A stretch of DNA of 64,000 nucleotides, taken from Mobula birostris. Taxonomy: Eukaryota. The stretch spans positions 3,316,175-3,380,174 of the forward strand of contig NC_092382.1 in the NCBI RefSeq assembly GCF_030028105.1. Reading direction: 5' to 3'. Under the pieces are notes generated by a model, which saw nothing but the letters and a program-made list of their open reading frames with translations, ran no database searches and had not been told where the DNA came from. Below are positions 4,753-33,684 of the stretch, piece after piece. The stretch's first letter is position 1. Every line of letters begins with the position of its first letter. The position numbers were made by a program, and so were the translations under genes.

Positions 4753-5651
4753 TTATCTACACAGATGGCCATTTAATGTAAACACATACTTCATTCCATT
4801 CCTCAGCTCTTCTCTGAATTTCCTCTGTGCCAGTGTATAGATACAAGTATTGGTGCACACGCTGAGAATTAACAACATTAACCCAAATTGCTGTAGGATG
4901 TATACCGGGGAACTCAAATATCTGTCCTGGTAAAAATAGTTTTGCAGTTGCCATTTCAGGGAATGGGCTACATAGGGCATCCAAAATAATATGAAATTAG
5001 CTGATACAGAAAACAGCGAAATCATCGACTTTCTGCGTTTTTCCACCTCGGCATCTTTCTGATTGTCGCTGCTGTGCCGAAGCCTTCTGCGGACTCTAAT
5101 TGCAGCAACGATATGTCTTACGGTTAACCCGTTAAACACCAGGATTAAGCCGATTGGTAGCAATGGTTTTAAAATACTGTCCAGTAATGCGTATCCTCTC
5201 CACACGGGTGAAGTGGCGTATTCATATGTGCCGGTGCACCGCCACGGCGTGTTGTCAATGATGACGTAAGGTTCAAGGGCAAAGTAAACCGGGGCACATC
5301 TCCCGCAGCTCACTATAACCACGGTCACGATAACCACCGTTGCTGTTCTCTCGGTGCAGTATCGCTCCCGCAGCTTTCGGCAACATATTGCGATGAAGCG
5401 ATCGAAGGTAAAACTGACCGTAAACCAAACAGAACAGTCCGTCATTATGACCCGAAATACAAGTGTCAGAGCGCATACAGGAGTGATGAGCAGGGATCTG
5501 GAATAAATGTAGATATTGTTGGTCTGTTCTACTAAAGCAACAACGATAACTACCATCAGATCCGCTGTTGCCATTCCAACCAGGTAACGGGTGATGCATT
5601 TGGAGAGTCCGCATTTTCCCCGAGAAAGGATCACAATCGCTGTTAAGTTAA
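4753..5651 (-). CDS. GPR139/GPR142-like class A GPCR, gene A, exon 2 (spliced protein 322 aa)
   Basis: Acceptor tttcttgcag|TT AAC. Motifs: TM2 MATADL, TM3 DCSVWFTVSFTFDRFIAIC, TM5 PLLP, TM6 FWMP, TM7 NTCIY, helix 8 KFREEL. Stop at 4753-4755. Confidence 0.93.
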
Positions 5652-6371
5652 CTGCAAGAAATTTGGAAACAAAATAGAAATATGGTCAGCTCCCTGAATG
5701 CCCCCATTCTACCGATGCGACGCAGGGTATGGTCTGTTTGGAAGTGAAAAGCGGGATTCCAGCGTGTGCGGTCTCCGTCGCTGCACTCCGGCTGGAGGAC
5801 AATGACGGATGTGAGTGTCGGTGGATTGGCGACCTTCCGACGGTTTAAAGCGAGGCATCCGAGTTCCACGACTCACGTACCGGTGAGCAGTCGATCGCTC
5901 CTGTAAACAACATCTTTTCCATTATTAGAGGTGAAATAGCTGAAGGAATTGTTTGTAGCGGTGACAAAGTGGAGTCAAGGAGATATGAAGAATGAGTTCT
6001 CATTTACTGACTTACAGAAGAACAGACCTGCATGTCGAAAATAGACTAGACAATCATTTATATAAGCTGCCATGTTGTTATAAGGTCGAAGTGTCTGCAC
6101 TGATAGAGACTCGGACCTAGAAAATCAGAGACCAGCATCACTTCAGAAGGCCTAGCGAGGTGAAATTATGAAACAGTGACAATATCGACACCAGCTTAAT
6201 TGACAAAGGAAGAAGGCATTGCGATCGAAGCATAGAAAATGAAAATAATACAATCAGATGCCCGAATCGTCCATTCCGGAAACACGTTTCAGCCGATGGT
6301 AGCATCTGTGCGGATACCGCAGCAAAGTAACGACGGCCCCATACATAAAATAACCAGCTCCAGCATCTTAC

Positions 6372-6441
6372 CGGGGACACCAACCGCTACAAGTGTGGGA
6401 TAGTAAATGGCCGCGATGTAGTAAATCGCCGGATATCCCAT
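6372..6441 (-). CDS. GPCR gene A exon 1 (MGYPAIYYIAAIYYPTLVAVGVP+G)
   Basis: ATG at 6441, 70 nt, donor G|GTAAG at 6371. Phase-1 join to exon 2 gives ...GVP-V-NLTAIVIL in frame. Confidence 0.9.
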
Positions 6442-6516
6442 ATTCCGTCAGGAGCAGCGTTCAGTTGTACGGAACGTTTCAGCTGCTCAGATAGACTGGG
6501 GATCGGATTAGCAGAC

Positions 6517-6570
6517 TTTTATTGAGTTGAGAGCAAGTCTACTGAGGCAATTAGCGTGGCTATCACGTCA
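6517..6570 (-). promoter_or_regulatory. Putative gene A core promoter: AATAAAA TATA-like box plus CRE-like TGACGTG
   Basis: AATAAAA at 6523-6517, ~76 bp upstream of the ATG; TGACGTG at 6570-6564. Both are retained in the paralog (33760-33766, 33807-33813). Confidence 0.45.
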
Positions 6571-7479
6571 GGGACATTAGTGACAACCAACTGCACAAAC
6601 ACTTACGTTAAGTTATTTTGACTCACTCTGTCCCCGTGTCATGAATTTGACTCCTCAAGGGATATTGCAATCTATTTACTTCAAAACAAAACATGATGTG
6701 CTTTTTTCCATGTTATTTTCCATGATACCTGGCTTCAGCTATTTTAATAGTATATATATATTTAATATCTGTGTTGCTTTTAAAGTAGGCATTCATCTTG
6801 AAGTGGATTTATTTTGTAACATTTGAAGGAACACATTCGCTTCTGAAATTGAGGGATGGAGTTTGTTCTGACAGGTGGAATGGAGAACACTTCTTTGTTA
6901 AAGGGGAACATTCGCTCATTCTTTTCTTTCGCTCGTTCCCGTCATTCCGGGCGGTTTGAGTGATGGAAACCACAGTGACAATTGACAAGTGTTACAATAA
7001 AATACACTGCACTTATATTCCTCAAAACACTTTAATGTATCCACAGCGATATTCCAGAGACCTGTGGTCAAAGAGGGCACGTATCTTCGGGAAATTAGTG
7101 AGGGCTGTGGGCAGTTTGAAGAACAATGTTTTCCAGCGCACGCATGGGCCGTTCGGCAGGAACCTGACCTCTGCCAGTGAATGACTTGACCACCCCATAC
7201 CCGTGACCTGCGATGCAGTCTAATTAACTTTAAAGATATTTCATTCAAACCTGCCTCAATTCCACCACTATGTCTCCATCCATTCTCTGAACAAATAGCA
7301 AATAAAATCTGTGAACTATCCGCAGCTGTTCTATTATTAGGCACGAAATTGTATTTTTTCTCTTCTGATTTACTGTCAGGTATATTGCCTTTCGAGCGTC
7401 ACTATAAGTATGTGCAGAACAGCGGATGGCTTCAAGCTCACCTGTCAATCACACGTCTTCCTGCTCTTGCAGTGCATCG

Positions 7480-8935
7480 CTCCGTGACTATTGTGGTCTC
7501 GTACCGATGAGCGCCCTCGCCTTATTGGAGAGAGTCTCATCACTCTGTTTCCATTGGGGAACTCGTACTTATGTGCGGCCCTCGGTTGACTCGAGAAAGT
7601 ATCACCTCTACCTTCAAATCCATCCTTCCAATGTGAATCACTTCGTACCGTTTCGGATTGAACTTCACCTGTAACTTCAGAGCGCTGCTCTGCGTCCTGT
7701 CACTGTCCTGTTGTAACCTTCTATACCATCCATAATTCCACCAACTTCCACATGATCGGAAACACAGTAACCAATCTTCCATTTCCTCAACCAAATCATT
7801 AATAAAACACAAAAATGCCAGGGGTCTCAGAACAGAACTCTGTAGGAGACCACTGGCTGCCGACACCCATGAAGAAAACGCCCCATAACCAACGGTGTAG
7901 TGCATTCTGTGGGCGTCGGTTCTGATCCACCAGCTAACTTCAAACTTTTTGAAAGGCCTACCAATTTTAACCGTATCAAATACCCTATTAAAATCCATTC
8001 ATACCAATACAAATTCTCTTCCTTTATGAACGCGCTTTGTCACAATCTCACAGAACTCAGCCAGGCTCCGGAGACGTGCCCTGCGCCTCACAAAGCCATG
8101 TCGACTCTCCCTAATCACGTTTCTGCAAATCCTGTTTCTAAGATTCTCCTCCAATAGTTTGCCCAGCACTGAAGTAGGACTCATTGGGTTATAATTCACA
8201 TGGTTATACCTACAGCCTTTCCTGAACAAGACAATAATATTTTCCACGCTCCAATCCGCTGACACTACATCTGTGGTTGGTGATAACGCAAAGCTCAGCA
8301 CCAGTGGAGCAGCAATCTCTTCCCCCGCTTCCCACAGTAACCTGGGGTTTCTCGCCACCACACCAAGAGGACTTACCAATCCTAATATTTTTCAAAGGTT
8401 TCTGCACATCCTCTTTTTTAACCGCGACATGTTGCCGCACATAAGCCCTTTTAACGCTTCCTCGCAAACGTCAGGATCTCTCACTGGTGAAAGTTGAAGT
8501 AAACTCCTCATTAAGGACCTGACCTGCCTCCACCAACTCCAGCCACAAGTTTCATCTCTATCCCTGACCGGTCCGACCCTCAATCTAGTCATCCCTTTCC
8601 TCACATACATCTAGGATATCGTGGGGTTTTCCTTAATCCTCATGGAGGCTTTCTGTAGAGGGATCTTGTTCTCCTAATTCCATTCTCCATTTCGTCCCTG
8701 GCTGCCGTGTCCGATCCTAGCTTTCTAAACCTGGTCAGCATCTTTCTTCCTCTTGACCAGTTGATCCACATCTCTCTCAAACATGGTTCCTTCACCTATC
8801 CAGAGCCCTATGCAGGTGTTGCGTAAAATACCTTCTCATTCGCGGTGTATATTTTCCAGAGCGCACAAGTTCCCTGATTGATCTCTGAGATTCCGGCAAA
8901 ATGGCATCATAATGCCATTTCGCCAATTAATTACT
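7480..8935 (-). mobile_element. Degenerate CR1 LINE RT region
   Basis: ORF-track fragments with 'LFRKG', 'PTSVLGKLLE', 'HGF', 'MDF', 'QSSVLRPL..FINDL'; multiple frameshifts. Confidence 0.85.
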
Positions 8936-10434
8936 TTTGGCCTGTGGGGAGAGAGCAGGAAAATGTGATTAGTTAGGGGACTGAGAAAGGTTCGAGGGGA
9001 GAGATCGCGGTAATGGGATTCGTTTGGAGACTGACACGGGGGTTTTGTGGAGATAGCGGGGCAGCTTGATTAATTTGGTGACTGATGCAGGGCTGTGGGA
9101 AGAAAGCGGCAGCGAGATTAGTTCAGGAACTGGTACAGGGATATGGGGAATAAACTGGGATTTAACGAGGCAGTGGAATTAATTTGGGGTGACATGAGGC
9201 TGTGGAGACATAACGAGTTTGTGGCATTATTTTCTGACTGGCACGGGTCTCTGGGATTACTGAAAGCCCCCGTTTACGAAATTTGGGTGCCAGTACAGAG
9301 TGAAGCACACAAAAATGTGAATTTTACTGTATTTTTCACAAGTCTTGTGTTTGTGCTGTTACATAAATAATTGAAATGACAAATGGAGCTCCCCCACCCC
9401 ATCCCTCCATCCAGTAGCTGCCCCTACCGGTCCAACCCCGCATTCCCATGCTCTCACTCCACCCTTCCTTTGCCCTCCAGACTACGGAATCCCCGAGCCC
9501 AGGAACACCGCCAAACCCACGAGTACCGGGACTTCTGATCACACACCTACCGGGCCGGCTCTCCCCCCATAGATCACGGAGGTGAGGTAAACTCTAACCT
9601 TCCCTCAGCTTCTCACAGCCTCTTCGGCCTCAGGACCTATCGACCCGAAACGACTCGCAAGCGAGGCCCATCTGTGCAGAGAGCCAGGGCGCTCCCGTGC
9701 CTTCAGCGCCCTTACCTCCTGGGACAGAGGCAGGAGGTCGGGGACGTTTTGTGTCCGGATGAGGGTCGGCACAGGCGAATCACCGTACTGAGTAGGAAGT
9801 AGAAGGGAGCGGGAGGGTAGAGGGGGTTCCCGGGTACTTGAAGGTACATGAAGGGCCAGAGTCTCTCTCAGGGAGGGGACGTTTCCTCTTGGACCCTACT
9901 CACCTCCAGTCCAGCCCGGCTCTAGGCTGCACTGAGCTCCGACTGCGACGCTAAATCCGACTGCAGACTGGAAAGAGGGCTGCCTGCATCCCGTCCGCGT
10001 CTTCCCCGGGACACTGCATCTCTCGCCGGCAGGCAGGCACCGTCCCGTTCGGGAAGGACAAGAGGCGTCACAGAGGGCAGGGAAGGCGATTTCTGCGGAG
10101 GATCGGACAGAAAGATAGAGTGAGGCTAGGTCGGAGGAGGGGATGAAGGTGGGGGTGTTCGGGAGAGGAAGGGAGGGTGGTCGCGAAAATGGGTTAGAGA
10201 TGGAGATCGCGAAAAGGGGTGGAGAGTGTGATCAATATGACAAGGAGGGAGGGGTCAGACCGAGACGGAAAAGGCTGGATGGATGTTTCAGAGGGATTTT
10301 ACAATGGAAGCTGTGCAATCCTAAAATGGCGAGCCGGTATGAAAGCCCTCTAACTACTCACGGTACATAAACGTTTTCTCTGATTCACAATGCCCCATCC
10401 TCCCTCATACCAGTCTGTCTCTCAGCCCCTAGTC

Positions 10435-11495
10435 TGTCATAATGGGGCGCTGGTAGCGGACCCAAATGCAAGACACAGACACTGAAGTATTTGGAACAGG
10501 ACCGGACAAAACTAAGGGACGGGACAGGTCACAGACTAGGACTAGAGTTAAGAAAGGAAGGGAAGTGGAAAAGAAAGGACGCTGGACATGACACAGGCCC
10601 GGGACAAGACAAGGATATAGGACCTGGCTAGGACTTGACTAGGAACAGGGAAACCGGACAAAGGACCATGAACTAGGATCCTGGGCTTGGACTCCGAGCC
10701 AGAGACTGGACACCGACCCGAAACCTGGGTCTTGACTCAGACTCGGACACCGAAACTAGACGAGACATGACGAGGCTTGGGTTCTTCGAGGTTAGGGTAC
10801 TACGAGGCTTGGGTATGGACTCCGAGCCAGAGGCTGGGTAAGGACCCTGAACATGGTAAGGACATGACATGGTCTTGGGAGAGCAGGAACATGGAAGGCA
10901 GAGCCTCGGTCTTGGGAGAGCGGGAACGTGGAACACAGAACCTTAGTCTTGGGAGAACAGGAACACGGATACATGGACTTGAGAGACAGGAATATGGAAC
11001 ACCGAGCCGGGACCCCTCCTTAGGAACAGGACGTAGAGCCCGGTCTCATACACAGAACACAGAGCCGGGATCCCTCCTTGGGTACAGGCCATTGGGCCGG
11101 GACTCACACACAGACCACAGAATATGACGAGACTGTCAATAACACAAGGTAGCGGCAGACGGCCGGACCTACCTAGCGAAGGCGTGGATAAAAAGCAGTA
11201 CAACACAACGATAGACGGTTCCTATCCTGCTCCGGCGATAGAACTATACAGTGGTGCAGACGAGACAAGGCTTCAGACGAGGAAACAGAAGTCAGGGGAA
11301 GGGAAAGGATACAGACAGGCCGTATGGACAGGAAAACCCAGCAGCCAGAGGCTGAATCCTGAAAGTATTTATGAAGCCAGCCCAAACGAGAATCAGCTAA
11401 CTTAACAGAAATTGGGGAAAACCGGAAAAACTGGAATAAGAAACATGGACCGGACCGTGAACCGGAATGCGAATTACACGGACCGGAGCATGACG
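10435..11495 (-). mobile_element. Solo LTR, Gypsy chromovirus/sushi-like family (same family as 37757-38947)
   Basis: Termini TGTCAT...ATGACG (CA mutated), imperfect 5-bp TSD tAGTC/cAGTC. Reverse complement matches the 38400-38930 segment, including 'catttgggtcc' near the 3' end. Confidence 0.75.
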
Positions 11496-11499
11496 CAGT

Positions 11500-11743
11500 C
11501 CCTCTATCACCTCCTGCAGTCTCTTGCTCTGCTGGCTTTCTCTAACACTTAGTCTTTCGCCTCTCCTCCACCAGGCTTTCTCCTAGTCTGTCTCACCTCA
11601 CAGTCACTCATCTGCGTCTCTCTCCAGACCTGAGGTCTCTCTACAACCGTCTCAGCAACCCCTATCAAATCAGCAAATCACTTCTCCTTCTCCTTTACTA
11701 CCGATATTCTCTCTCCCAGTCGCTTTCTCTTCTCTCTCTGTCT

Positions 11744-11802
<59 letters not shown>

Positions 11803-14140
11803 GCCTCTCTCTCTCTCTAGTACACCTTTCCCAGGCGTCTCTCTCCCTCTCTCTGCCTTTACCGTCCCAACATCCCAGTCATTCTGTTCACTTGATCTCT
11901 TTCCTTCCAGTACCTTTCCCACCCCAATTTCTTTCTACACTCCCATCTTTATTACCATCTGTCCCCCGTTCTGTCTCTTGAGCCCGATCTCTGTCCCCAT
12001 TCAAGTCCAACCCTCTCTCCCTCTGCTCTTTCTCTGAATCCTCAGTCTCTCTCCCCGTCTCATTCTCCCTCCCTACTTTCTCTCTCCTCAGCACTCCGGA
12101 CCCTCTGTTTCCCAGATTCTTTCCCTCTCCCAGTCTCTTCGCTCAGTCCCTACTTCTCTCTCTTTCTCACTGATCCCCCTAGGATCACACCCTCTCGTTT
12201 CTTCCTGCAGAGTCTCCCCGTGTCTTTCGTCTCCAATCCTTTCTTTCCACATTTTCTCTTCCCCGACCCTCGTTTTTCTCGGCCGCCTTCTCCCCTGTCT
12301 CTGTCGCTCCCGTGTCCTGCCCCCGACTCTCTCATTCCGCATTCTCTTTCACCAAGTTTCTTCCTCCCCAGTTTGTCTGAATCCACAGTAATTCCCTCTA
12401 CCCCTCAGTCTCTCTCTCTCACCCCAGGATCTCTGTGTCCCTCACTCCACTGCCACTCCTAAGTCGTCTTTCTCCTCCAATCTCTTTCTTCCCCAGTCTA
12501 TCTCTCCCCAAAATTGCTGTTTCCGCAGTTTATCGTCCCTCCCCCTTACCTTTTCTCCTAGTACTTCTCGTACCTCACTCGCTCTGCATTCTACCCCTCC
12601 TTGTCCTGTCTCTCTCTCTCTCTCTCTCGGAACACACAGTGTCTCTCACCCGACTCTCCCTATCCCCTCAGTCTCCCTCGCCTCGTCCCTCTCTACCCAC
12701 TGTCTCTATCCGGTCCTCCCTCTCCCCCAGTAACTCTATCCACCAGTCTCACCCTCTCTACGTCAGTCTCTCTTTACCCAGTCTTTCTCACATCTATCTC
12801 TCTGCCCAGTGTCTCTCTACCCAGTCTTTCTTACTTCCCACTATCTCTCTGCAACAATTTCGCTTTCATCACATTCTCCCTCTGCCGTGTCTCGACCATC
12901 TCTCTTCCTGATTCTCTCTACCCTGCTTTCTCTTCCAGTTTGGTCCCCTAATCTGAGGAAGGAGATTCTTGCCATATAGCGAGTACAAAGAAGGTTCACC
13001 AGACTGATTCCTGGGATGGCAGGACTTTCATATGATGAAAGACTAGATCGACTAGGCTTATACTCGCTGGAATTTAGAAGCTTGAGGGGGGATCTTATTG
13101 AAACGTATAAAATCCCATAGGAATTGGACAAGCTAGATGCAGGGAGATTGTTCCCGATGTTGGGGAAGTCCAGAACGAGGGGTCACAGTTTTTAGGACCG
13201 AGATTAGGGAAATCTTCTCCACACAGAGAGTGGTGAATCTGTGGAATTCTCTGCCACAGCAAACAGTTGAGGCCAGTTCATTGGCTATATTTAAGAGGGA
13301 GTTAGATTATGTCCCTTGTGGCTAAAGGGATCAGTGGGTATGGAGGGAACGCTGGTACAGGGTTCTGAGTTGGATGATCAGCCATGATCATACTAAATGG
13401 CGATGCAGGCTCGAAGGGACGAAGGGCCTACTCCTGCACCTATTTTCTATGTTTCTATGTTTCTATGTTTATCTCATCGTTCTTCTTTCCCCCAGACTAT
13501 AACCTCTAGTCTGTCTCTCTATCCATCTGTCTTTCTGTAACCCCCAGTTTCTTCGCCATCCCACCAGTCTCTTCGCAGAGACACTCTCTCCTTTGTCTGT
13601 CTTTCCAGCTCACTNNNNNNNNNNNNNNNNNNNNNNNNNNNNNNNNNNNNNNNNNNNNNNNNNNNNNNNNNNNNNNNNNNNNNNNNNNNNNNNNNNNNNN
13701 NNNNNNNNNNNNNNNNNNNNNNNNNNNNNNNNNNNNNNNNNNNNNNNNNNNNCTCTGTCCCCCAGCCTCCCTCCCTGACTACTCCTTCTTCCCACAATCT
13801 CTCTCTCCGTGACCTATCCTCCCCAGTCTCTCTCTCTCTCTCGCGGCCAACTCTCTCCTCGTCACTCTCCTTTCGGCTCACTCTCCCAGTCTCCTTTCGC
13901 ACGAGTATCTCCGCCCCCTTGTCTTACTCTTTCCAAAGTCTCTCTGTCACCCGTGTCTGTTCTTCTAGGCTTTCTCATATCCCCCACTATGTCAGCGTCA
14001 GTCTGTTTCTCACCGCAGGCTCCTTTTCGCCTCCGATTCTCTCCATTCCTCAGTTTCTCTCCTCAAAGCCCCAGTCTCTCGCTCCCTTGTCTCTCTGACA
14101 CTTCGGCCCCTCTCCCGGACTCTCTCGCTCTCTCCGCGCC
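11500..14140. repeat. Long CT-rich low-complexity region with (CT)n tracts; interrupted by a CR1 and an N gap
   Basis: Direct reading. Confidence 0.85.
12938..13470 (+). mobile_element. 5'-truncated CR1 LINE with (ATGTTTCT)n tail
   Basis: Encodes the 'WSPNLRK..', 'QRVVNLWNSLP' ORF2 C-terminus; tail at 13445-13470. Confidence 0.9.
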
Positions 14141-14309
14141 ATTGCTGCTCTGCTGACATCCCTGCCAGCAGCTCCTTCCGGTTTACTTTGGCCAACGCCT
14201 CTCGCATACCACTGTAATTTCCCTTTCTCCACTGAAATTCTGCTACATCAGACTTTACCTTCTCCCGATGAAATTTCAAGTTGAACTCAATCATATTGGG
14301 CCTGGAATA

Positions 14310-14990: not shown

Positions 14991-15059
14991 ATTCAGTCAG
15001 GGTGTTGTTGGAATTTCCATTCCCTCCGTGACAAGACGGGACCAGGCGGTTAACATTAA

Positions 15060-16383: not shown

Positions 16384-17020
16384 AGAAACATAGAAAATAG
16401 GTGCAGGAGTAGGCCATTCGGCCCTTCGAGCCTACACCACCATTTATTATGATCATGGCTGATCATCCAACTCAGAACCCTGTACCTGCCTTCCCTCCAT
16501 ATCCCCTGACCCCCGTAGCCACAAGGGCCATATCTAACTCCCTCTTAAATATAGCCAATGAACTGGCCTCAACTGTTTCCTGTGGCAGAGAATTCCACAG
16601 ATTCACCACTCTCTGTGTGAAGAAGTTTTTCCTCATCTCGGTCCTAAAAGGCTTCCCCTCTATCATCAAACTGTGGCCCCTCGTTCTGGACTTCCCCAAC
16701 ATCGGGAACAATCTTCCTGCATCTAGCCTGTCCAATCCCTTTAGGATTTTATAAGTTTCAATCAGATCCCCCCTCAATCTTCTAAATTCCAACGAGTACA
16801 AGCCCAGTTCATCCAGTCTTTCTTCATATGAAAGTCCTACCATCCCAGGAATCAATCTGGTGAACCTTCTTTGTACTCCCTCTATGGCAAGGATGTCTTT
16901 CCTCAGATTAGGGGACCAAAACTTCACGCAATACTCCAGGTGTGGTCTCACCAAGGCCTTGTACAACTGCAGTAGTACCTTCCTGCTCCTGTACTCGAAT
17001 CCTCTCGCTATAAATGCCAG
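16384..17020 (-). mobile_element. Young 5'-truncated CR1 LINE inserted at the 3' end of GPCR B, same orientation
   Basis: Uninterrupted ORF2 C-terminus 16472-16966 (YKALVRPHLEYC...QRVVNLWNSLP); (ATGTTTCT) tail at ~16384-16396. Confidence 0.93.
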
Positions 17021-17917
17021 TTAGTTTGTTAATAAGTTGAATAATTGACGAGAGCGGATATTTCGCTGCGCTGATGAACTGCTCTCGGAACTTGGACTGC
17101 GTCACCCCATAAATAAACCTGTTTGTGCAGCAACTTAATATCATCAGCATGTATCCGGTATGTTGAAACATATATTCCGAATCGTTGTAATACTTTGGGT
17201 CGAGCCCGGCAATGATGTCATAAAGAAATTCGGCAACACTCACCGACCACAGGATGATGAAGCTTCCGGAGATGGTGAGAAGTAAGATCACAGACCTCCT
17301 CCTGCTCTTCATCTCTGGGTCACTGCGGTTCTCCGCCTTGCTCTGACCCCTCAGCCCCTTACGGACGCGACTGGTCACTAAAATGTGCCTGACTGTCAGA
17401 GCGTTGAGCAGCAGTATTAACACGAACGGTAATAACGGCGCTAGAACGGTAGAAAGCCAGCTATATCTCACCCACCAAGGATCGGTAAAGTAGCTCGATT
17501 TACGAATGCAACGTATATTGTCAATCACTTTCACAGCTCGATACATAAAGAAGTAGGGCACATTTTTAAAACAGAGCAGAACGCCGGTTGTTGTCAGAAC
17601 TACAGCCTCAGTTTTCCCGGTGCAATACTTTGCCTTCAGCCTCTGGCAACAGATGGCGACAAACCGATCCAACGTAAAAGTGACAGTGAACCAGACAGAA
17701 CAGTCTGAGGCAGCCCTTGCCGGGACAGCAATCGAACTGCATACGGGGGTCATCTCCAGGAATGAACCGGGGAAGTAATAATAACTGACCCGCCACAATA
17801 TAACCTGAAAGATGATGGTTAGTAGATCCGCCGTTGCCATGGCCACCAGGTAGCGAGTGGTGCAGGTGGAGAGGCTGCACTTTCCCCGGGACAGGATCAC
17901 AATCGCTACTAAATTCA
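16908..17917 (-). CDS. GPR139/GPR142-like GPCR, gene B, exon 2 (spliced 358 aa; last 37 aa CR1-derived)
   Basis: Acceptor tttctgcag|TG AAT. Motifs: MATADL, DCSVWFTVTFTLDRFVAICC, PLLP, ILW, NRFIY, KFREQF. The reading frame continues into the CR1 to a stop at 16908-16910. Confidence 0.88.
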
Positions 17918-19280
17918 CTGCAGAAACAGCAGAAATAATGAGTGAATTGCTGTCACACCCCACCACGGATCTCAGCGCTGAGAAGTGCATAAAAATTGAG
18001 AACAATCAAAGTTTGCAGACAACGCATTTCTGGAGTTCAACAGGTGTAAAGTGGGACTTGCAGATGTCTCGTACAATTACAGCCTGGGTAAATAGTAACA
18101 GTACGCTGTCCTGGAAGAGGAGCAGGGTTTGGGAAGGCGGTATTTTCAACGAATCGCCGAATGTGCTTTGGATTGGAGAAACCAATAGAAATCTCCAATC
18201 ATCAGTTTTTTGACATATACAAAGCTCGGATGCCTCGGCGATTTCTCAGCGACGATGTTAGCTACGTTTCTGTTACATGCGTTCCAGAATCGCCCCATGG
18301 AGCGGAGCCCCGCCCCCTTCACTTCTGTCTCCCATTCACATGTCTTCGCCTCCTCCTGAACTCCCATTTGCCATCCGCGAACAGGGAGCTCTCTTGGTTC
18401 GCTTCTTTAAATTCTGGATCTACGCTTGACCGTGGTCGAATGCAATCAGGAAGTTCTATTTTCCAGTTCTAAAGATTTTGCATGTATTTTGAACGCTAGT
18501 GCTTAAACCATCCAATTTCCAAAGGAAAGCCAATGTATGTTTTTCAAAATATATTTCTCTTTAAGGGGTTGCTCCAAAATTACTGCAGCATTATTCTAAA
18601 TGCTGCGAGGCTTATTGTTCCAGATCGGTGTATCGCATGTTCCTTACCCCGTCCGACCTCCAACAGACACTGCTGGATTAGCTCTTAACTCCCTCTTCAC
18701 TACACGTATCGTGGGACATGGAAACAAACCCTGGTGCACTAAAACGCACACAGACCCTTGTTTGAATTTCGGAATCTTACGGTGGTTCTGAGTCTAACTC
18801 ACAAGTGATATCAACTGTTCTCCCCTGGATCTCATCGGCGACCCGCTTCCCGCGTTCCCTTCAGACTTGAAGCAAGTTCTTAAAAAAAAACAGCGCAATA
18901 CGATAATTCTGAATGTAAAGCATGTTACGCTGTTGATACGGAATAACACCAAGTAGCCCGTAAAGGTGCCCAGCGTAGTGGATTATCAGAGTTTTTTTTT
19001 GACAGCATCTTTGCATTGATACATCAAAATTGCCTGCTCTGAATCCACAAAATGAATCTATCTATTCGATCTTCCTCTCTACATCTGTTTCAACTGCCGC
19101 TTTACATTCCGCCGAGGCCACGGATTAAACTGCGATGGATCTTCTGAAGGAACACAGAGATTTGTCACAATGTCTGCACCGCACTCACTGATACACCGGC
19201 AGCACGACGCTGTCGGTAACTGAACGAGTCCAAAGGCCGCGCACACAGAACAGAAAAGCTTACTCCGCCTCTGTTCTTAC

Positions 19281-19430: not shown

Positions 19431-19519
19431 TTTATACTCGCACCAGCACACTGAATATTCAACACTACACAAGGCTGACGTGTCTTTCGGCAGCTGGGGC
19501 ACAAACTAACATGACGTCA
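19431..19519 (-). promoter_or_regulatory. Putative gene B promoter: TATAAA box plus CRE sites
   Basis: TATAAA (minus) at 19436-19431; TGACGTG at 19476-19482; palindromic TGACGTCA at 19512-19519. Confidence 0.55.
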
Positions 19520-23745: not shown

Positions 23746-23779
23746 TCTGTCTTTCAGGATAAACTATTTGAGTTGCTAG

Positions 23780-25870
23780 GACACAACTCTCTTGTCGCAC
23801 TCTGGTTCACCCAATCTGAAAGACCGAATGACTAAATACCAGAGAGTTCAGTTCCTCGTGATCCTGACCTGTGTTTGCATGCCGCGAAATGCCGACGTGA
23901 AGCAGGCACTGGAGAGGGTGAATGATGTCAGCAGCAAACAAGAACCGTTCCAGCCCGACTTCCTTCAAATGTTGGTAACTTCAATCAGTCTTTAACATCA
24001 TTCACGCAGGCTTCAATCAGCCTTTTTTGAAGAAATCTCTACCCAATTATATTCAAGATATAACCTGCAGCTCCGAGTGGCACAAAGCAGTCGGCCATTA
24101 CTAGACCACGATCAGGGATGCCGACTTATCCTGGACCACATTTCGGGAAATCTGATCACTTGGCTGTACATCTCCTCCCTGTGCTCAGGAAGAATCTAAA
24201 CGGCAGGGGTCGAGAGATTAGACAACAAAAAAAGGTGGTCGCGGGGGGTAGGGTGCGACTACAGGATTGCTTCGAGTTGGTGAGCTTGGCCGTGCTTAAG
24301 GACTCATCAGAGGATCTGAATGAGCATCACCATGATTGACACGGACTTTATAAAAAAGAGTCGTAGACAAGCGTGACCCCAGCACGTCATTCGGAGCCTT
24401 CCCCAGTCAGAGACCCTGGCTGAACCGTACGATCCGCAATCTGCTGAGGACCGAACCTGAATCACTGGCAAATGCTCGACAGCTGTGTCAGGACCTGAAT
24501 GCCATCACTTTTTACAGGGTGAATCCAGATGATCCCAATGTCCTCTGTGCTCGCTTTGACCGTCAAGACAAGGAGAAACCTTCAAGAACTCGAAAAGCCC
24601 CCGATGTTGGTATGATTTGTGTCTCATGGCCGACACGACAGCGTCTTTCGGGAGGGTGAACGACGGCAAGCATCCGGCCCAGACTGAGTACCTGGCCGAG
24701 TACTAATGACCCGTGTAAATCAACTGTCTCCAGTTTTCATCGATATGTTTATTGCATAGACAGTCTGAGGCAACTATCTGGCTCAAGCAGACTTCGATTA
24801 TACCGGTGCCTGAGAAGGACTAACCACTATGATGAAACGCTTTGACAGCTTGATGATGAAGCACATCAAGCGTACAAGATGATGAGAGGCATTGATCGTG
24901 TGGATAGTCAGAAGCTTTATCGCAGGGCTTAGATGGCTAGCATGAAAGGGCACAATTTTAAGGTGCTTGGAAGGAGGTACAGAGGAGATGTCAGGGGGGA
25001 TTTTTTTTCCGCAGAGAGTGGTGAGTGCGTGGAGTGGGCTGCCGGAGACGGTGGTGGAGGCGGATACGATAGGGTATTTTAAGAGACTCCTGGATAGTTA
25101 CATGCAGCTATGGGTAAGGCTAGGTAATTTCTTTGTAAGGACATGTTCGGCACAGCTTTGTGGGCCGAAGGGCCTGTATTGCGCTTTAGTTTTTCTATGT
25201 TTCTATGTTTCTAATTCCGGCCTGAGAAGCGACTTATATCCGCTCAATTTACCTACGGCCACAACAGGTCCACAGCAGAGGCAATTTCATTGGCTCTTCA
25301 CTCAACCCTGGGACATCTGGACAGCGAAGACGCATACATCAGGACGCTTTTCATCGACTACAGTTCGGCATCCGATACTGTCGTCCCACAGATCTAGTTA
25401 ATAAGCTTCAGGACATTGGCGTTAATGTCTCCTTAATGCAGTTGGATCTTCGAGTTCCTCAACCGCATTGCCCAGGCAGTTCAGATTAATAAATAAAAAC
25501 TCCTCCAGTATCTCCATTAGCACATGTACACCGTCGTGTTGAGAGCTTATCCCCTGCTGTACTCGCTTTGTGTTTTTGACTGAGGCTAAGTACAGCTCCA
25601 ATGATATATGTAATTCTACTGAATAGATAACTGACATTGAACAAATCATAGGCTTGTCAAATCAGCATATAGGAGAAAGATTGAAAATCTGTCGGAGAAG
25701 TGCCACAACAGCAACTTCTCACTCAATGTCAGCAGGAAGATGGATCTGATTAGGGACTTCAGGAAGGGGAAAGCGGAGATCCCTGAGGCCGTCCTCATCC
25801 GAGGATCAGAGGTGGAGAGCGTCATCAGATTTAATGTCCTATTACTATTTAGGAGAATCTCCCCTGGCAC
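23780..25870 (+). mobile_element. Degenerate Rex1/Babar-type LINE with a nested CR1 3' fragment (~24870-25212)
   Basis: 'PHFGKSDH', 'LQDCFE', 'IDYSSA', 'LSLNVS...DFRK' motifs in shifting frames; CR1 tail at 25195-25212. Confidence 0.65.
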
Positions 25871-27392
25871 CAGATTAAATAATTCCTCGCGGGTCTGACA
25901 GCATGCAGACCCTGTTTCTGTGCAGTGGTTCCCTATGACTGCCTGACTATATGTCTGTATATCTGGATAAATACTGGGATAGGGATGGCCACAGTCCGGG
26001 TGCGGGTCGATGGGAGTACACAGATTAAATAATTCCTCACGGGTCTGACGAGCTGGAGACCCTGTTTCTGTGCAGTGGTTCCCTCTGGCTGTTTTACTGT
26101 ATGTCTGGGTTAGAACTTTATTGTCTCACAGCACCGACCAATCTAGCGAGTCGTTGATACTGTTCAATCCCTCTGTCCATGCACACACTGAATCTTGAAG
26201 ACTGAGTAAAATGGATGCTTATAGCATGAGAAGATGGAAGCGAAGGTGTGAGATGAGAAGGGGAGTATCACACTTCAGGAATAAACCTTCAGTCCTTCAT
26301 TAAGGCGGTAAAGGCAGTAGTTCCGGGCTGGAGGTGGATGGGACAGTGGTCCCAGTACAGGGAACAAATCTGTTGCTTCCGCGGTGGTAATGGGGATCAT
26401 TGGCCCCGATACTATACAACAAAGTGTTCATTTCATCCGAATCCTATCCTTGGTTAGAAATTGCAGGTGAGAAATCCTGGCAGTCGTTGGAGGCTTGGAA
26501 TTGTGGAGACGTCATATTTTAATTGTGTTGAATATTAACTCGTGGACGATACATTACTTTCTGCATCTCTTTGTCTTGGAGTCGAAAGGTTTTATTTTAT
26601 GTTGTATAATTGCAATTTCAACTTGTTAACGGTTGAACAAATAAGAGCATGTCATTTTCTGCGATATTTTTTAAGATATGAATGCACTGCGGATTTAAAA
26701 TACTGCACAAAGTGTGGACATAAGTGAGTTCAATTGAAAGAGAAAGAGAAAGTTAACGACCATGAATGGCTGTATGGGAGTCGTGTGTTTCTAGTTTGTG
26801 TTGGGTGGATGATTAAATTCATTTCTTTTTCACCATACGTGAGACAGAAAATTTGCCTCTCCTTACAAGAAATAATTTCCGGGAACTGGTGCAAAATTCG
26901 GAGGATACGTTTCTTTCCGAAATTCTATGAAGAGTTAATGTATGTGAGCCGGATCTCCCCACATCTTACTCTCTTCAGTTCTTCAGAATACGTGCTGCGG
27001 ACTTCTGCTCAGGGAGTTGTTTATTCTGTAGCGATGGCTTTGAAGTAAGACAAGTGTAGCCACGTATGTTTGCTTTGCTTTCACTGCGTTTTTAGTTTGT
27101 GTAGTTTTGTGTGTTTCATTTATTATTGATTTCAGAGGGAGACACGGATTCCACACTGGCCATGTGGATTCAGGGTTAAATAGATCGAAACATGAGCGTA
27201 TCTACACCCGATACGACAAAACCATGATTCAGAGGTAAATTGGCATTCGGATTAATTGCTGTGTACTTGATTTGGGAATTTAGAATTGGTACTTTGGAAG
27301 TCTGCTTATTTTAATGAGCGATTTGCTGAGCTATTGTCTATTGGCTTCGTTTAATCCGAATCCTATCCTTGATTAGAAATTGGAGGTGAGAA

Positions 27393-28558
27393 ACATAGAA
27401 ACATAGAAACACAGAAAACCTCCAGCACAATACAGGCCCTTCGGCCCACAGGTTTTTTTCCGAACATGTCCCTACTTTAAAAATTACTAGCTTACCTATG
27501 GCCCTCTATTTTACTGAGCACCATGTATCTATCTAAAAGTCTCTCAAAAGACCCTATCATATTCGTCTCCACCACCGTTGCCGGAAGTTCATTCCACGCA
27601 CTCACCACTCTCTGGGTAAAAAACTTACCCCTGACATCTCCTCTGTACCTGCTCCCCAGCACCTTAATCCTGTGTGTTCTTGTGGCAACCATTTTAGCCC
27701 TGGGAAAAAGCCTCTGACTATCCACACGATCAGTGCCTCTCATCATCTTATACACCTCTATCAGGTCACATCTTATCCTCCATTGCTCAAAGGAGAAATT
27801 CTCATAAGGCATGCTCCCCAATCCAGCAACATCCTAATAAATCTCCTCTGCATCCCTTCTCTGGCTTCTACATCCTTCCTCTAGTGAGGCGACCAGAACT
27901 GAGACAGTACTCCAAGTGGGGTCTGACCAGGGTCCTATATAGCTGCAACATTACCTCTAGGCTCCTAAATTCATTTCCACGATTGATGAAAGCCAATATA
28001 CCACAGAGTCAACCTGCGCAGCTGCTTTGGACTCAAACTGCAAAATCCCTCTGATCCTCCACACTGCCAAGAGTCTCACCACTATAATATATTCTGCCAT
28101 CATATTTGACCTACCAAAATGAACCACTTCACACTCCATCTGCCACTTCTCAGCCCAGTTTTGCATCCTATCAATGTCCCGCTGTAAATTCTGATAGCCT
28201 TCCACACTATCCACATCACCTCCAACCTTTGTGTCATCAGCAAACTTACTAACCCATCCCTCCACTTCCTCATCCGGGTCATTTATAAAAATCACGAAGA
28301 GTAGGGGTCCCAGAACAGATCCCTGAGGCACTCCACTGGTGACCGACCTCCATGCGGAATATGACCTGTCTACAACCACTCTTTGCCTTCTGTGGACAGG
28401 CCAGTGTGGATCCACAAAACAATGTCTCCTTGGATCCCATGCCTCCTTACTTTCTCAATAAGACTTGTATGGGTGACCTGATCAAATGCCTTGCTGAAAT
28501 CCATATATACTACATCCGCTGCTATTCCTTCATCAATGTGTTTAGTCCAATCGTGAAC
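27393..28558 (-). mobile_element. 5'-truncated CR1 LINE
   Basis: 'GVPQGSVLGPLLFVIFIND...FADDTK' RT motifs; (catagaaa)n tail at 27393-27415. Confidence 0.92.
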
Positions 28559-28905
28559 AAAATCTTGGCAGTCGTTGGGGTATTGGGGACGTCATATTTT
28601 AATTGTTTTGAATATTAACTCGTGGGCTATACATTACTTTCTGCATCTTTTTTTCTTGGAGTCGAAAGGCTTCATTAAATGTTGTATAATAGCAATTGCA
28701 GATGTTTGTGACCTATTGAACAAATAAGAGCGTGTCATTTTCTGCGATACTTTGAAAATATGAATGTATTGCGGATTTAAAATTAGTACGATGTTTGGAC
28801 ATAAGTGAGTTCAATTGAAAGAGAAAGAGAAAGATTACGGCCATGAATGACTTTAGTGTGCTTCTTTAGTTTGTATTGGCCGGGGGGGAGGGGGGATTGA
28901 ATTAA

Positions 28906-29175
28906 CCTTTACATACTATTCGGGTCAAATTTGACCCGTTTTGAATTTTGACAGCAGTAAAAACACCCGAAATGCCATTTTTTAGCCGAAATTTGATGAC
29001 TTTTCCTAAAGTGACTCAAAATGCGCAAAAATGAAAATATTTAAAAAAATATATACTTTTGTCCATGTGCTATAAATTTTTGTATATTGAGGCTGTAATG
29101 AGGGGTTTCTTGGGCCCGGTCAAAACTGACCCGGACCATAGTGTGAAGGTATAGAATATGAACAGGTTGCCTGAG
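28906..29175. mobile_element. piggyBac-type MITE (~270 bp) with TTAA target duplication
   Basis: TTAA at 28902-28905 and 29176-29179. Subterminal palindromes cgggtcaaatttgacccg (28921) and cggtcaaaactgacccg (29117). Absent from the paralogous unit at ~26815. Confidence 0.75.
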
Positions 29176-31864
29176 TTAATCTTTTTCACCATACACGTGA
29201 CCAAAAGAATTGTGTCACCTTGCAAGAAGTGATTTCCAGGAATTAATGCAAAATTCTGAGGCTGCATATCTTTCCCAAGTTCTATAAAGTGTTAGTGTAT
29301 GTGAGCCTCATCTCTCCACATCTTAATCTCCTAATTCTTTAGAATACGTGCTCAGGCCTTTTGCTTGGAAGTTGTTTATTCTGTACTCTACAACTGCCTG
29401 CGATGGTTTTGAAGGAAGAAAAGTGTGAGCAGGGATGCTTGCTTTGCTGTCGCTGCGTTTTTAGTTTGTTTAGTTGTGTATGTTTCATTTATTATTGATT
29501 CCAGAGGGAGACACGGATTCCACACCAGCCATGTGGATTCAGGGTTAAATAGATCGAAATCTGAACGCATCGACACCCGACACGGTAAAACTACGATTCA
29601 GAGGTAAATGGGCATTAGGATAAATTGGTGTGTAGTTGAATTGGGAATTTGTAATTGGCATTTTGGACGGCTGGTTCGTTTAATGAGCACCAATAGCTGC
29701 TGGTCAACACTTTAACATGTTGATTTTAAGTTGCAGGACTCCGTTGGAAAAGATTGTTTCGAAGTCATTTGCAATCAGTAGTTCAGCGAATTGCTTATAT
29801 CGTCAGCACTAATTCTATAAATTATCCAGCCGCTGCTGGGTGGTCAGATTAAATCAGTTATTTCCCTCAGTCCTATTTCTCGGAGCACTGTAACTGCAGA
29901 TGCCAAATATAGTTGTAAATTGTACCGAAATTTCGATCCTCCTTGTGGAACACGGCTGCCCGCTGCCTTCCGGCCAGAATTCACTCTAATCATCTGCCTT
30001 CTGTGAGTAACCCAATTGTGAACCAACCAGCCAGGTTTCCCTGTGTCCCATGCCTCCTGACTTTCTGAATGAGTCCACAATGGGGAACTGATCAAACGCC
30101 TGACCAAAATTAATGCACCCAGATCGACAGTTCTGATTCTTCTGTTTGTTTTAATTTCACTTTTTCAAATAATTCTGTCTGGCTCAGAAAGGACAACATG
30201 CCATGTTGTCTCTCCGTAGCCAGACTACGTTTCTCCAAATTCTCATTAATTTCCTCTTCAATAATCCTCTCCAGTAGTTTACCCACTACTGATGTAAGAC
30301 TCCCTGGTCTATAATTTCAAGAAGTGTAGCTGTTATCTTTCGTCAACAAATGAATAACTTTTTCCAACCTCCAATCATCTAGGTTTACCTCTGTGGCCAG
30401 CGAAGACACAAATATCCTGTCCAAATCTCAGCAGTAACTTCGCTCGCCTTCCAAAATTACCTTAACTATATCCCTTCCTATATCGGGGAAATCATCCATC
30501 ATAATGTTTTCCAAGTTTCCAGCGCATCCTCTTTCTCAGCGTCGGCATGATCTGGCGTATCTGCCTTTTTACGATGTGTTCACATTCATCAATGTGTTCA
30601 GTGAGGAGCTTCACTTTCTCCTTGGACTCCAGACACGAGTTTTCCTCTGATCTGCCCACACTCTCTCCAGTCTCCTCCTGCTCTTCACAGAGCAACTCCT
30701 CCAAGGACTTCTCAACCCCGCTTCTAAGGCTGCAAAGTCCATTGTTAAATTCTTTCACGTCCGCATTGTGACTCGTCATAACCCTATCTGATTCTCTTTT
30801 CCTAATTCTTAAGTATCTTTCTTTCTTCCTCTTGAATCGTTCTAATCTTCTTGTCTCCCAGGGTAACTTTACGCTATCATCCTTTCCCTTCCTCAAAGAG
30901 ACAAGCCTATACTGAACTCCATGTCATTGTTCCTTCAAAAATCTCCACATATCTGTTGCGCGTTTCCCTGAGTACACCATTTCCCAATTTACCTTCCCAA
31001 GTTCCTGTCAGGTAGCCCCATAATTCGCAGAGGCCCAATTAAATACATTCCATGCTCCCTGGTCCTATCTCCGTGCAAGGTAAATGTCGGCGAGTTCGGC
31101 CCTATCGTCCTGAAATGCTGACCCGCGGAGAGATCTGTCACCTGATCCGTTTCCTTTTCTAATATTAGATCCAGTCTGGACTGTTCGCTATCCGCCTGTC
31201 TTCTTATAGTGACATGAATCCTTCCTGGACACAACTGAGAAATTATGCCATAGCTAAACCTTTTACCCTGGGGAGGTGCCAAAGAATATTGTGGAAGTTT
31301 CATTTACCCGTGCCAATAGCATGACACGTGTCGATGTTCCCCTCCCAATCGGTTCCTCGCTGTTCCCTTTGCGTTTTTTTTTTGTTAATCTGGTGGGGGG
31401 AGTGCTGTATAGAATTCTCCAAATGGGGTGATCGCGCCCTTCAAATTTCTGTGTTCGTCTCACAGTCTATTAACAAACGAACGCTCCACGTTGTCCTCTC
31501 TTTCTGCATCTGCGATACCATCCCTGATCTGCCATCGCACTCCCTTTGCACTCTGTTACCCGACCCTCTCCATCTTTCAACTTCAAAAACACGGAAAGAC
31601 CTGCAGCCATTCCTGCCGTGTGATAGTTGAGTGTCTGTGATAGTTTGTAACATACCTCAACCATTGTAACAAACACGGCAGCAGCATTGAACGTTTGTAT
31701 TGCTACCGACCTATTCTGTATGAGGTCAGCAATCTTCCGCCAATTCTACAATTTCAGGATAAGCAGGCATATGACTGTTTGGGTTTATGACATATTTGCC
31801 AACCCTGTTCATTGGAAAACGGCTTTATTTGAAAACTCCGCTGAATTGCCATTGGAGGCGCGCG

Positions 31865-32763
31865 TTATCTACACAGATGGCCATTTAATGTAAACACATA
31901 CTTCATTCCATTCCTCAGCTCTTCTCTGAATTTCCTCTGTGTCAGTGTATAGATACAAGTATTGGTGCACACGCTGAGCAATAGCAACATTAACCCAAAT
32001 TGTTGTAGGATGTATACCGGGGAACTCAAATATCTGTCCTCGTAAAAATAGTTTTGCTGTTGCCATTTCAGGGAATGGGCTACATAGGGCATCGACAATA
32101 ATATGAAATTAGCTGAAATAGAAAACAGCAAAATAATCGATTTTCTGCGTTTTTCCACCTCGGCATCTTTCTGATTGTCACTGCTGTGTCGAAGCCTTCT
32201 GCGGACTCGAATTGCCACAACGATATGTCTTACGGTTAACCCGTTAAACACCAGGATTAAGCCGATTGGTAGCAATGGTGTTAAAATACTCCCCAGTAAT
32301 TGGTATGCTCTCCACACGGGTGAAGTGGCGTATTCATATGTGCCGGTGCACCGCCACGGCGTGTTGTCAATGATGACGTAAGGTTCAATGACAAAGTAAG
32401 CCGGGACACATCTCCCGCAGCTCACTATAACCACGGTCACGATAACCACCGTTGCTGTTCTCTCGGTGCAGTATCGCTCCCGCAGCTTTCGGCAACATAT
32501 TGCGATGAAGCGATCGAAGGTAAAACTGACCGTGAACCAAACAGAACAGTCCGTCATTATGACCCGAAATATAACTGTCAGAGCGCATACAGGAGTGATG
32601 AGCAGGGATCTGGAATAAATGTAGATATTGTTGGTCTGTTCTACTAAAGCAACAACGATAACTACCATCAGATCCGCTGTTGCCATTCCAACCAGGTAAC
32701 GGGTGATGCATTTGGAGAGCCCGCATTTTCCCCGAGATAGGATCACAATGGCCGTTAAATTAA
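31865..32763 (-). CDS. GPR139/GPR142-like GPCR, gene C, exon 2 (spliced 322 aa; close paralog of A)
   Basis: Acceptor tttcttgcag|TT AAT; same 899-nt length as A exon 2; FDRF and NTCIY motifs. Confidence 0.93.
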
Positions 32764-33614
32764 CTGCAAGAAAATGGAACAAAAAAGAAATACCTTCAGT
32801 GGCAACTCTCTGAATGCCTATTCTAAAGATGCTGTGCAGGGTATGGTCTGTTTGGAAGTGGAAAGCTGATATCTAATCGCAGGTAAATTAACCTCGAGAA
32901 ACTGGAAAGCAAAAGAGAAGAATGGTCAACAGCAACTCTCTGAATGCCCCTAGGTCTGGTCTGTTTGGAAGTGGAAAGCGGGAGTCCAGTGTGTGCGGTC
33001 TCGGTCGTTGCACTCCGGCTGGAGGACAATGACGGATGTGAGTGTCAGCGGATTGGCGACCTTCCCACAGTTTAGAGCGAGGCATCAGAGTTTCACGACT
33101 CACGTACCGGTGAACGGACGATCATCCCAGTAAACAAGACAATTTCTATTATTAGAGGTGAAGGAGTTGAAGGGATTGTTTGCAGCGGTGACAAAATAGA
33201 ATCAAAACATACAAAGCACAATTTATCATTTATTGACTTATATAAGAGCAGCCCTACGTGTCGAAAATGGACTGGACAGTCATTTATATCAGCTGCCACG
33301 TTGTTATAAGGACGAAGTGTCTGCACTGATAGAGACTCGGGCCTAGAAAAGCAGAGACCAGCATCACTTCAGAAAGCCTAGCGAGGTGAGATTGTGAAAC
33401 AGTGACAATATCGGCACCAACGTAACTGACAAAAAAAATCACATCGATTAAAGTCCGAAAATGAAAATAAAACAATCAGATGCCTGAACCCTCCATTCTG
33501 GAAACACGTTTCAGCCGACGGTCGCATCTGTGCTCAGTAAGAGTGCGGATCCCGCAGCAGAGTAACAGCAAGACGACGGCACCGTACATAAAGTAACCAT
33601 CTCCGGCATCTTAC

Positions 33615-33684
33615 CGGGGACACCAACCGCTACAAGTGTGGGAAAGTAAATGGCCGCGATGTAGTAAATCGCCTGATATCCCAT
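33615..33684 (-). CDS. GPCR gene C exon 1 (MGYQAIYYIAAIYFPTLVAVGVP+G)
   Basis: 70 nt, ATG at 33684, donor GTAAG at 33614. Confidence 0.9.

What the first reader, a model, noticed from the sequence alone, without database searches (positions are those of the whole stretch)
4753..33684. Paralogs A and C differ mainly around the predicted ligand pocket, including loss of the TM6 Trp
Seen (manual alignment): 22 aa differences in 322. Clusters: TM3 (LV>VI); TM4 outer end (APVYFAL>VPAYFVI); TM5 top (GYALLDSILK>AYQLLGSILT, removing two charges); TM6 (MISLFSV..FW>IILLFSI..LS); ECL3 (L>Q, Q>E). ICL1, TM2, the DRF region, ICL2, ECL2 and helix 8 are identical. Known: the TM6 W of the CWxP motif (6.48) is a class A activation micro-switch, and C has Ser there. 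Inference: ligand-specificity divergence under positive selection after duplication.
Basis: partly seen in the sequence, partly recalled or inferred. Interest (0 to 1): 0.7.

Follow-up and report, generated by a model that had tools for sequence, protein, structure and literature searches.

The report
Ray receptors reshuffle their binding pockets
Two neighbouring ray receptor genes differ mostly at their predicted binding pocket because they are patchworks of segments shared with dozens of sister copies, likely swapped by gene conversion and likely favoured by selection, and one lacks a usual activation-switch tryptophan, a change that arose several times in this family and whose effect is untested.

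Summary
Confirmed: A and C are intact 322-aa GPR139-like class A GPCRs with 22 differences, including W6.48S. Eight fall in 30 cavity positions (list recalled; 2 expected, p=0.0003). The story 'divergence after A/C duplication' fails. A and C are not sisters; they belong to a 36-gene clade of a far larger family. No difference is private to C; 20 of 22 have both states in other paralogs. Gene conversion is strongly indicated (PHI p=1e-4; A/C intron 14.5% versus silent sites 4.1%; near-identical sisters differ by swapped TM5 tracts). Positive selection in this clade survives controls (M8a/M8 2dL 98.7; neutral-mosaic null max 63 of 85; 16-47 with block trees), but an older group is equivocal. 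W6.48 is not a selected site. Ser6.48 occurs in 12 of 36 genes and arose at least three times in the family. A Ser pair elsewhere shows purifying selection (dN/dS 0.34), whereas C's group looks neutral (12 N:3 S). Expression and ligands are unknown. The scan noted this family before on other DNA; the shuffling and Ser6.48 recurrence were not in the notes returned.

The parts
6372..6441 (-). Gene A exon 1 (ATG, N-terminus and outer TM1)
   Evidence: GT donor follows
5652..6371 (-). Gene A intron, 720 nt
   Evidence: 103 of 711 sites differ from C's intron
4753..5651 (-). Gene A exon 2 (TM1 to helix 8), 7tm_1 class A GPCR, Trp at 6.48
5275..5295 (-). A: TM4 end / ECL2 start segment, codons 143-149 (states A,V,A,L)
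   Evidence: 14 state combinations in 35 paralogs
5167..5196 (-). A: TM5 outer segment, codons 176-185 (5.37-5.46; states G,A,D,K)
   Evidence: same states in L002, L004, L020
4981..4983 (-). A: W247 (6.48), TGG
   Evidence: aligns to GPR139 W241
33615..33684 (-). Gene C exon 1
32764..33614 (-). Gene C intron, 851 nt
31865..32763 (-). Gene C exon 2, 7tm_1 class A GPCR, Ser at 6.48; spliced protein identical to P0001
32576..32719 (-). C: codons 39-86, identical to A in DNA; likely conversion tract from an A-type gene
   Evidence: silent marker at codon 64 is found only in A, L002 and C; C's recent duplicates L012/L018 differ here
32387..32407 (-). C: TM4 end / ECL2 start segment, codons 143-149 (V,A,V,I)
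   Evidence: same states in L027, L034, L035
32279..32308 (-). C: TM5 outer segment, codons 176-185 (A,Q,G,T)
   Evidence: same states in L029, L031; Q-G-T also in L012, L018, L026
32093..32095 (-). C: S247 (6.48), TCG, preceded by L246 TTG
   Evidence: Ser in 12 of 36 clade members
2702..7940 (.). Duplicated unit holding A (matches 29809-35191)
29809..35191 (.). Duplicated unit holding C
16908..17990 (-). Distant paralog B (44% identical to A)
42915..43943 (+). Distant paralog D (45% identical to A)

Best explanation
A and C are two intact members of a recently multiplied clade of ray GPR139-like orphan receptors, and their differences are shared sequence segments, likely moved between copies by gene conversion and likely kept by diversifying selection on the predicted ligand pocket, which would give the animal many receptors of differing specificity. 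Shown: both genes are patchworks of states found in other paralogs; differences concentrate at TM3, the TM4/ECL2 edge, outer TM5, ECL3 and TM7; the inner face is under purifying selection. Inferred: conversion recombines pocket segments into new combinations (22 combinations of five segments in 35 genes); selection favours some of them. Ser6.48 is one more movable variant, likely tolerated rather than selected. It is predicted to change the pocket floor and activation threshold; a hydrogen bond to Ser7.45, as in MrgD, is possible because all 89 genes examined have Ser7.45.
For: Family: 141 of 141 scored matches at 80% identity or more, 134 on one contig, from 4729 first-look candidates. Not sisters. 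20 of 22 differences have both states in other clade members, none private to C. PHI p=1e-4, silent sites only p=0.009. A/C four-fold sites 5 of 122 against intron 103 of 711 (p=0.0007); C/L012 exon 27 of 899 against 3' flank 9 of 1400 (p=2e-5). L017/L028 differ at 1 of 853 intron and 1 of 1400 flank sites but at 12 exon sites, all in codons 163-196, silent markers included; similar TM5 tracts in L014/L029, L004 and L024. M8a v M8 2dL 98.7 on 28 sequences, above all 85 neutral-mosaic simulations (max 63); 41, 47 and 16 with 4, 6 and 10 block trees; 73, 24 and 15 without 8 multi-nucleotide columns. Counting each variant once, cavity sites have N/S 1.54 (p=0.04) and GPR139 contacts 1.76 (p=0.02) against 0.35 for the inner half. 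10 of 15 candidate selected sites are A/C differences; 13 of 15 are extracellular. Ser6.48 pair L166/L167 has dN/dS 0.34 (p=2e-5).
Against: Mosaicism alone inflates the test: the neutral null averages 2dL 26. In the older group (47 sequences) 2dL 18.5 exceeds 32 of 32 nulls but falls to 1.9 with block trees, and its variant-count ratio at cavity sites is 0.71 (counts saturate there). For the A/C pair alone pocket dN/dS 2.8 is not significant (p=0.5). 311 (helix 8 end) and 206 (inner TM5) also score as selected. Variants confined to the 10 intact Ser carriers are 12 N:3 S, as neutral change would give, and include D3.49N in L045; Trp carriers have 17:14 (difference p=0.12). 4 of 36 clade genes have stops and 4 more lack the ATG. 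Pocket positions come from generic numbering and a 22%-identical template, not from coordinates. Site models are my own code (M0 checked against IQ-TREE, -3415.1 v -3416.9), with fixed topology and empirical-Bayes posteriors.
Confidence: 0.62

Rival explanations
1. Relaxed constraint plus conversion: pocket residues are simply free to vary in redundant copies, conversion shuffles them neutrally, and the Ser6.48 genes of this clade are weakened or decaying copies.
For: Neutral mosaics give large false signals; the older group's signal vanishes with block trees; Ser carriers' private variants look neutral; W241H at 6.48 almost abolishes GPR139 responses to Trp and Phe (PMC5430874, passages); stops in 9 of 89 genes.
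Against: The real statistic exceeds all 85 nulls; single-count N/S above 1 at cavity sites; stops are no commoner in Ser carriers (2 of 12) than Trp carriers (2 of 24); the separate Ser pair is under purifying selection.
Confidence: 0.27
2. One reading: A and C arose by one duplication and then diverged by new substitutions under positive selection, with C losing the toggle Trp as an adaptive step.
For: The pocket bias is real and the two genes sit 27 kb apart in one duplicated unit.
Against: Not sisters; no state private to C; intron three times more diverged than silent coding sites; position 247 not selected.
Confidence: 0.05
3. Assembly artefact: near-identical copies and mosaic tracts come from false duplication or chimeric consensus in a repeat-rich chromosome.
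For: Several loci are identical in exon 2 (L006/7/8, L022/23, L029/30, L046/47), some on small separate contigs; the reads behind this assembly were not examined.
Against: Tracts are 15-100 nt, carry consistent silent markers and recur on several backgrounds; Ser6.48 sits in 12 loci with different flanks and in a separate 66-71% identical group on C34; hundreds to thousands of contigs from four other runs lay on C's exon 2 at 88% or more.
Confidence: 0.06

Closest known systems
Vertebrate GPR139 (PDB 7vug, 9m42) and GPR142
   Same: Best sequence match among solved structures (E 1.6e-7); same 7TM layout; Trp6.48 in A; databases auto-name the family 'probable GPR139'.
   Different: About 22% identity. 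Of the residues reported to matter for GPR139 agonists (F3x33, H5x43, W6x48, N7x38, R6x51; PMC5430874, PMC8807744) A keeps only Trp and C none. Has a TM3-ECL2 Cys pair and a predicted ECL2 hairpin. Hundreds of copies instead of one.
MrgD / MRGPR family (natural Ser or other small residue at 6.48)
   Same: MrgD has Ser6.48 hydrogen-bonded to Ser7.45, a shallow pocket and high basal activity (PMC9287403, passages). C has Ser6.48 and Ser7.45. MRGPRs are also a lineage-expanded sensory family (recalled).
   Different: No kinship was tested or suggested; C has Thr, not Tyr, at 3.36 and keeps D2.50, S3.39 and DRF. Here Trp and Ser forms coexist in genes 93% identical.
Birth-and-death receptor repertoires with gene conversion (olfactory receptors, TAARs, MHC class I/II; recalled)
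   Same: Tandem and dispersed duplication, pseudogenes, conversion tracts, diversifying selection on the binding site.
   Different: Not one of the described chemoreceptor families by any search here; tissue and ligands unknown.

Membership tests
Class A (rhodopsin-like) GPCR | 7tm_1 domain above the curated cut-off | tested here: met
   78 and 73 bits against cut-off 30.5
Class A (rhodopsin-like) GPCR | Seven helices plus helix 8, fold of solved class A receptors | tested here: met
   AlphaFold2 model of C, pLDDT 84; Foldseek TM 0.7-0.8 to NTSR1, CCK1R, GPR139
Class A (rhodopsin-like) GPCR | Micro-switch motifs N1.50, D2.50, D/ERY, P5.50, CWxP, NPxxY (motif names recalled) | tested here: inconclusive
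   N25, D54, DRF 107-109, P189, F243, P249, N291, Y295 are present in both; no C6.47 or P7.50 in either; W6.48 only in A
GPR139 orthologue | Agonist-binding residues F3x33, H5x43, W6x48, R6x51, N7x38 | tested here: not met
   A: V91, D181, W247, Y250, L281; C: V91, G181, S247, Y250, L281 (list from PMC8807744, PMC5430874)
GPR139 orthologue | Single, highly conserved gene | tested here: not met
   At least 141 copies at 80% or more to A; 22% identity to human GPR139
GPR139 orthologue | Phylogenetic placement with GPR139/GPR142 against outgroups | not tested
   No GPR139 sequence was held as a stored protein; only search ranks
GPR139 orthologue | Activation by L-Trp or L-Phe | not testable with these tools
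   needs a cell assay
MrgD-like toggle-free receptor | Ser6.48 with Ser7.45 | tested here: met
   C S247 and S287
MrgD-like toggle-free receptor | Tyr3.36 packing, shallow pocket, basal activity | tested here: not met
   3.36 is Thr94; pocket depth and basal activity could not be tested
Chemosensory receptor repertoire | Many copies, pseudogenes, diversifying selection on the pocket | tested here: met
   for the 36-gene clade; equivocal in the older group
Chemosensory receptor repertoire | Expression in sensory cells | not testable with these tools
   no run with tissue on record was available

The most novel reading that the evidence does not exclude
Rays build a combinatorial receptor repertoire from an undescribed GPCR family: short conversion tracts swap pocket cassettes (above all outer TM5) between copies and selection keeps the swaps, while a recurrent Trp-to-Ser change at the 6.48 switch flips receptors between a deep-pocket, ligand-gated mode and an MrgD-like shallow or constitutively active mode on otherwise identical scaffolds.
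Probability: 0.2. Interest if true: 0.8.

Novelty: new variant of a known kind. Interest (0 to 1): 0.5.

Why it matters
Cartilaginous fishes are thought to have few classical odorant receptors (recalled), yet this family has hundreds to thousands of copies and no paper on it turned up. The A/C clade shows how its diversity is likely made: by recombining pocket segments. It also supplies natural near-isogenic receptor pairs with Trp or Ser at 6.48 (L003 and L027; L013 and L025) and with swapped TM5 segments (L017 and L028; L014 and L029), which make the role of the toggle switch and of pocket cassettes directly testable.

Tried and rejected
Pairwise dN/dS of A and C as a test of selection: 0.57-0.60 overall, pocket 2.8 but p=0.5; uninformative. 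Chi-square p-values of single-tree site models: rejected as inflated, because neutral mosaics average 2dL 26. W>S as a sequencing error: rejected, 12 loci on C17 and 3 on C34 carry it. The C34 Ser genes as donors of C's Ser: not supported, they are 63-71% identical and sister to a Trp-bearing protein. Expression: no RNA holder listed; one run guessed to be RNA had 9 short contigs on the TM6 stretch, no tissue given; nothing concluded. Ser6.48 in other organisms' runs: X1, X8 and X17 showed only the Trp letter at 32094 and X5 left about 1.5% of depth unexplained; contigs show presence, not absence, so nothing concluded. Lipid-facing versus pocket-facing from coordinates: the model gives no coordinates, so generic numbering was used. 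The 30-position cavity list could not be read in print; PMC11910321 only cites it. Excess of conversion tracts over outer TM5: about 5 of 13-15 tracts counted by eye against 11-17% expected (p 0.03-0.06); post hoc, a hint only. No complex prediction was sent: no partner is claimed.

Full report
Observation. Genes A and C are two-exon genes on the minus strand, each 322 aa, differing at 22 residues and 39 nucleotides; NG86 dN 0.035, dS 0.061. Both score as 7tm_1. C's spliced protein is identical to record P0001, which its source names probable GPR139 of Mobula birostris. An AlphaFold2 model of C (91-sequence alignment, pLDDT 84) places TM1-7, an ECL2 hairpin at 149-164 and helix 8 and matches peptide receptors and GPR139 about equally. 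With generic numbering the differences include 1.39, 3.29, 4.60, 5.39, 5.42, 5.46, 6.48 and 7.43: 8 of 22 in a 30-position cavity list (recalled; expected 2.05, p=0.0003), 4 of 17 GPR139 contacts taken from PMC8807744 (p=0.02), 17 of 22 in the extracellular half (p=0.006). Five lie on the inner side (206, 233, 235, 239, 298).

Family context. A search of the own genome gave 4729 first-look candidates; all 141 that were scored are at least 80% identical to A and 134 lie on contig C17. B and D each bring further sets, also on C24. The protein database gave 2134 hits; the named ones among the best 120 are from sharks and rays. I fetched 90 of the 141 loci. One with a 3-nt deletion was dropped, then 9 with stops and 5 identical repeats, leaving 75 sequences: 28 of a 36-gene inner clade that holds A and C, and 47 older ones.

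A and C are patchworks, not a diverged pair. A's sister is L002; C groups with L012, L018, L026, L017, L028, L045. Both states of 20 of the 22 differences occur in other clade members; only S235 (A and L002) and A298 (A) are private, none to C. PHI detects recombination (p=1e-4; silent sites p=0.009). A and C differ at 103 of 711 intron sites but 5 of 122 four-fold sites, and C differs from L012 at 9 of 1400 flank sites but 27 of 899 exon sites. Sisters with near-identical non-coding DNA differ by short tracts with silent markers: L017/L028 (codons 163-196), L014/L029 (166-186), L004 (176-180), L024 (143-196), L025/L032 (140-143). The 'identical' TM2 region is partly a tract: the silent marker at codon 64 is found only in A, L002 and C. 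Five pocket segments occur in 22 combinations in 35 genes.

Selection. My GY94 site-model code reproduces IQ-TREE's M0 likelihood. Inner clade: M8a v M8 2dL 98.7, 6.6% of sites at omega about 5.8. Neutral data simulated on ten block trees and analysed on one tree give mean 26, maximum 63 of 85 runs (simulations used nucleotide branch lengths, so the match to the real pipeline is approximate). With block trees the real value is 41, 47 and 16, and 73, 24 and 15 without multi-nucleotide columns. Candidate sites (posterior above 0.9): 91, 143, 145, 148, 149, 165, 166, 176, 178, 181, 206, 259, 284, 285, 311; 10 of these 15 are A/C differences and 13 are extracellular. Counting every variant once, which recombination cannot inflate, cavity sites give N/S 1.54 (p=0.04) and the inner half 0.35. 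Against: in the older group 2dL 18.5 beats 32 of 32 nulls but drops to 1.9 with block trees, and its single-count ratio is 0.71.

The 6.48 change. Trp is kept in 116 of 120 homologs and 53 of 54 older paralogs (one stop). Ser occurs in 12 of 36 inner genes, in two separate clades that share only TTG-TCG or TCG between differing markers at codons 241 and 254. L027 (Ser) and L003 (Trp) differ at only 9 of 748 intron sites, so conversion likely toggles the state. A tight pattern search found 14 matches: 9 of these genes, 3 genes on C34 and 2 stretches without such a gene. The C34 trio and the unnamed pair P0017/P0026 each form their own clade beside Trp-bearing proteins, so Ser arose at least three times; P0099 has Cys. 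L166/L167 show dN/dS 0.34 (p=2e-5), L168 is broken. Site 247 itself is not selected (posterior 0.13 or lower), and variants confined to intact Ser carriers are 12 N:3 S, as expected without selection, against 17:14 in Trp carriers (p=0.12). In GPR139, W241H removes responses to Trp and Phe (PMC5430874). In MrgD a natural Ser6.48 bonds to Ser7.45 and supports basal activity (PMC9287403); Ser7.45 is present in 89 of 89 genes here, Tyr3.36 is not. So Ser6.48 can be compatible with function in this family, but whether C itself is retuned or weakened is open.

Mechanism. Shown: multiplication, patchwork structure, pocket-side bias, constraint on the inner face. Inferred: conversion recombines pocket segments, and selection favours new pockets (0.62). 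Rival: neutral shuffling under relaxed constraint (0.27). Untested: tissue, ligands, signalling.

Known and new. It works like birth-and-death receptor repertoires with conversion; it is not a GPR139 orthologue by the residue and copy-number tests. Searches for a description of this expansion returned none (open-access library only, supplements not read, and the supplements of the batoid genome preprint may list it). Papers seen: PMC8807744, first third of the text; passages only of PMC5430874, PMC9287403, PMC6504862, PMC11910321, PMC10620051 and bioRxiv 10.1101/2025.06.08.657570 (the passages name SUCNR1, V2R and other tandem clusters, not this family); the rest as search listings. Earlier scan notes describe the same family on other DNA of this genome; look-ups for the toggle change with conversion and for this place returned nothing. 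Verdict: observation confirmed, interpretation partly supported, interest 0.5.

Noticed in passing
window 16908-17990 (-): Paralog B lacks P6.50 (FIILWSV) and its reading frame runs on into a LINE-like repeat (16390-17020, similar to 12939-13458 and 56228-56857), which supplies its last 35 or so residues; its 99% copy L096 has a TAA stop in TM7.
   Followed up: partly
window 4753-43943 and G000:C17 30.33-30.38 Mb: The order A-B-C-D recurs 27 Mb away with uneven protein identity (99, 99, 96, 93%), so the block duplicate is itself a mosaic.
   Followed up: partly
window 42915-43943 (+): Paralog D has its own recent clade of about 33 near-full copies at 89% or more, plus many 5'-truncated copies with stops.
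   Followed up: no
L020-L023 exon 1: Four clade members lack the ATG (Leu codon instead) yet keep an open exon 2.
   Followed up: no
L083, codon 247; L045, codon 107: One older paralog has a stop at 6.48; one Ser6.48 carrier has Asn for the DRF Asp.
   Followed up: no
residue 311 (end of helix 8) across the inner clade: K/V/T variation by multi-nucleotide changes scores as strongly selected although intracellular.
   Followed up: partly
window 45808-46865 and 62546-64000: Two arrays of C2H2 zinc-finger repeats in opposite orientation sit beside the receptor cluster.
   Followed up: no
window 39257-40729 and 45413-45742: Tandem repeats with units of about 46/92 nt and 65 nt.
   Followed up: no
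window 52000-52236 and 58067-58303: A 237-nt inverted repeat pair, 97% identical, 6 kb apart; may be the ends of a DNA transposon.
   Followed up: no
L166-L168 (G000:C34 22.83-22.86 Mb): Three tandem family members with an independent Ser6.48; two intact, one broken.
   Followed up: yes
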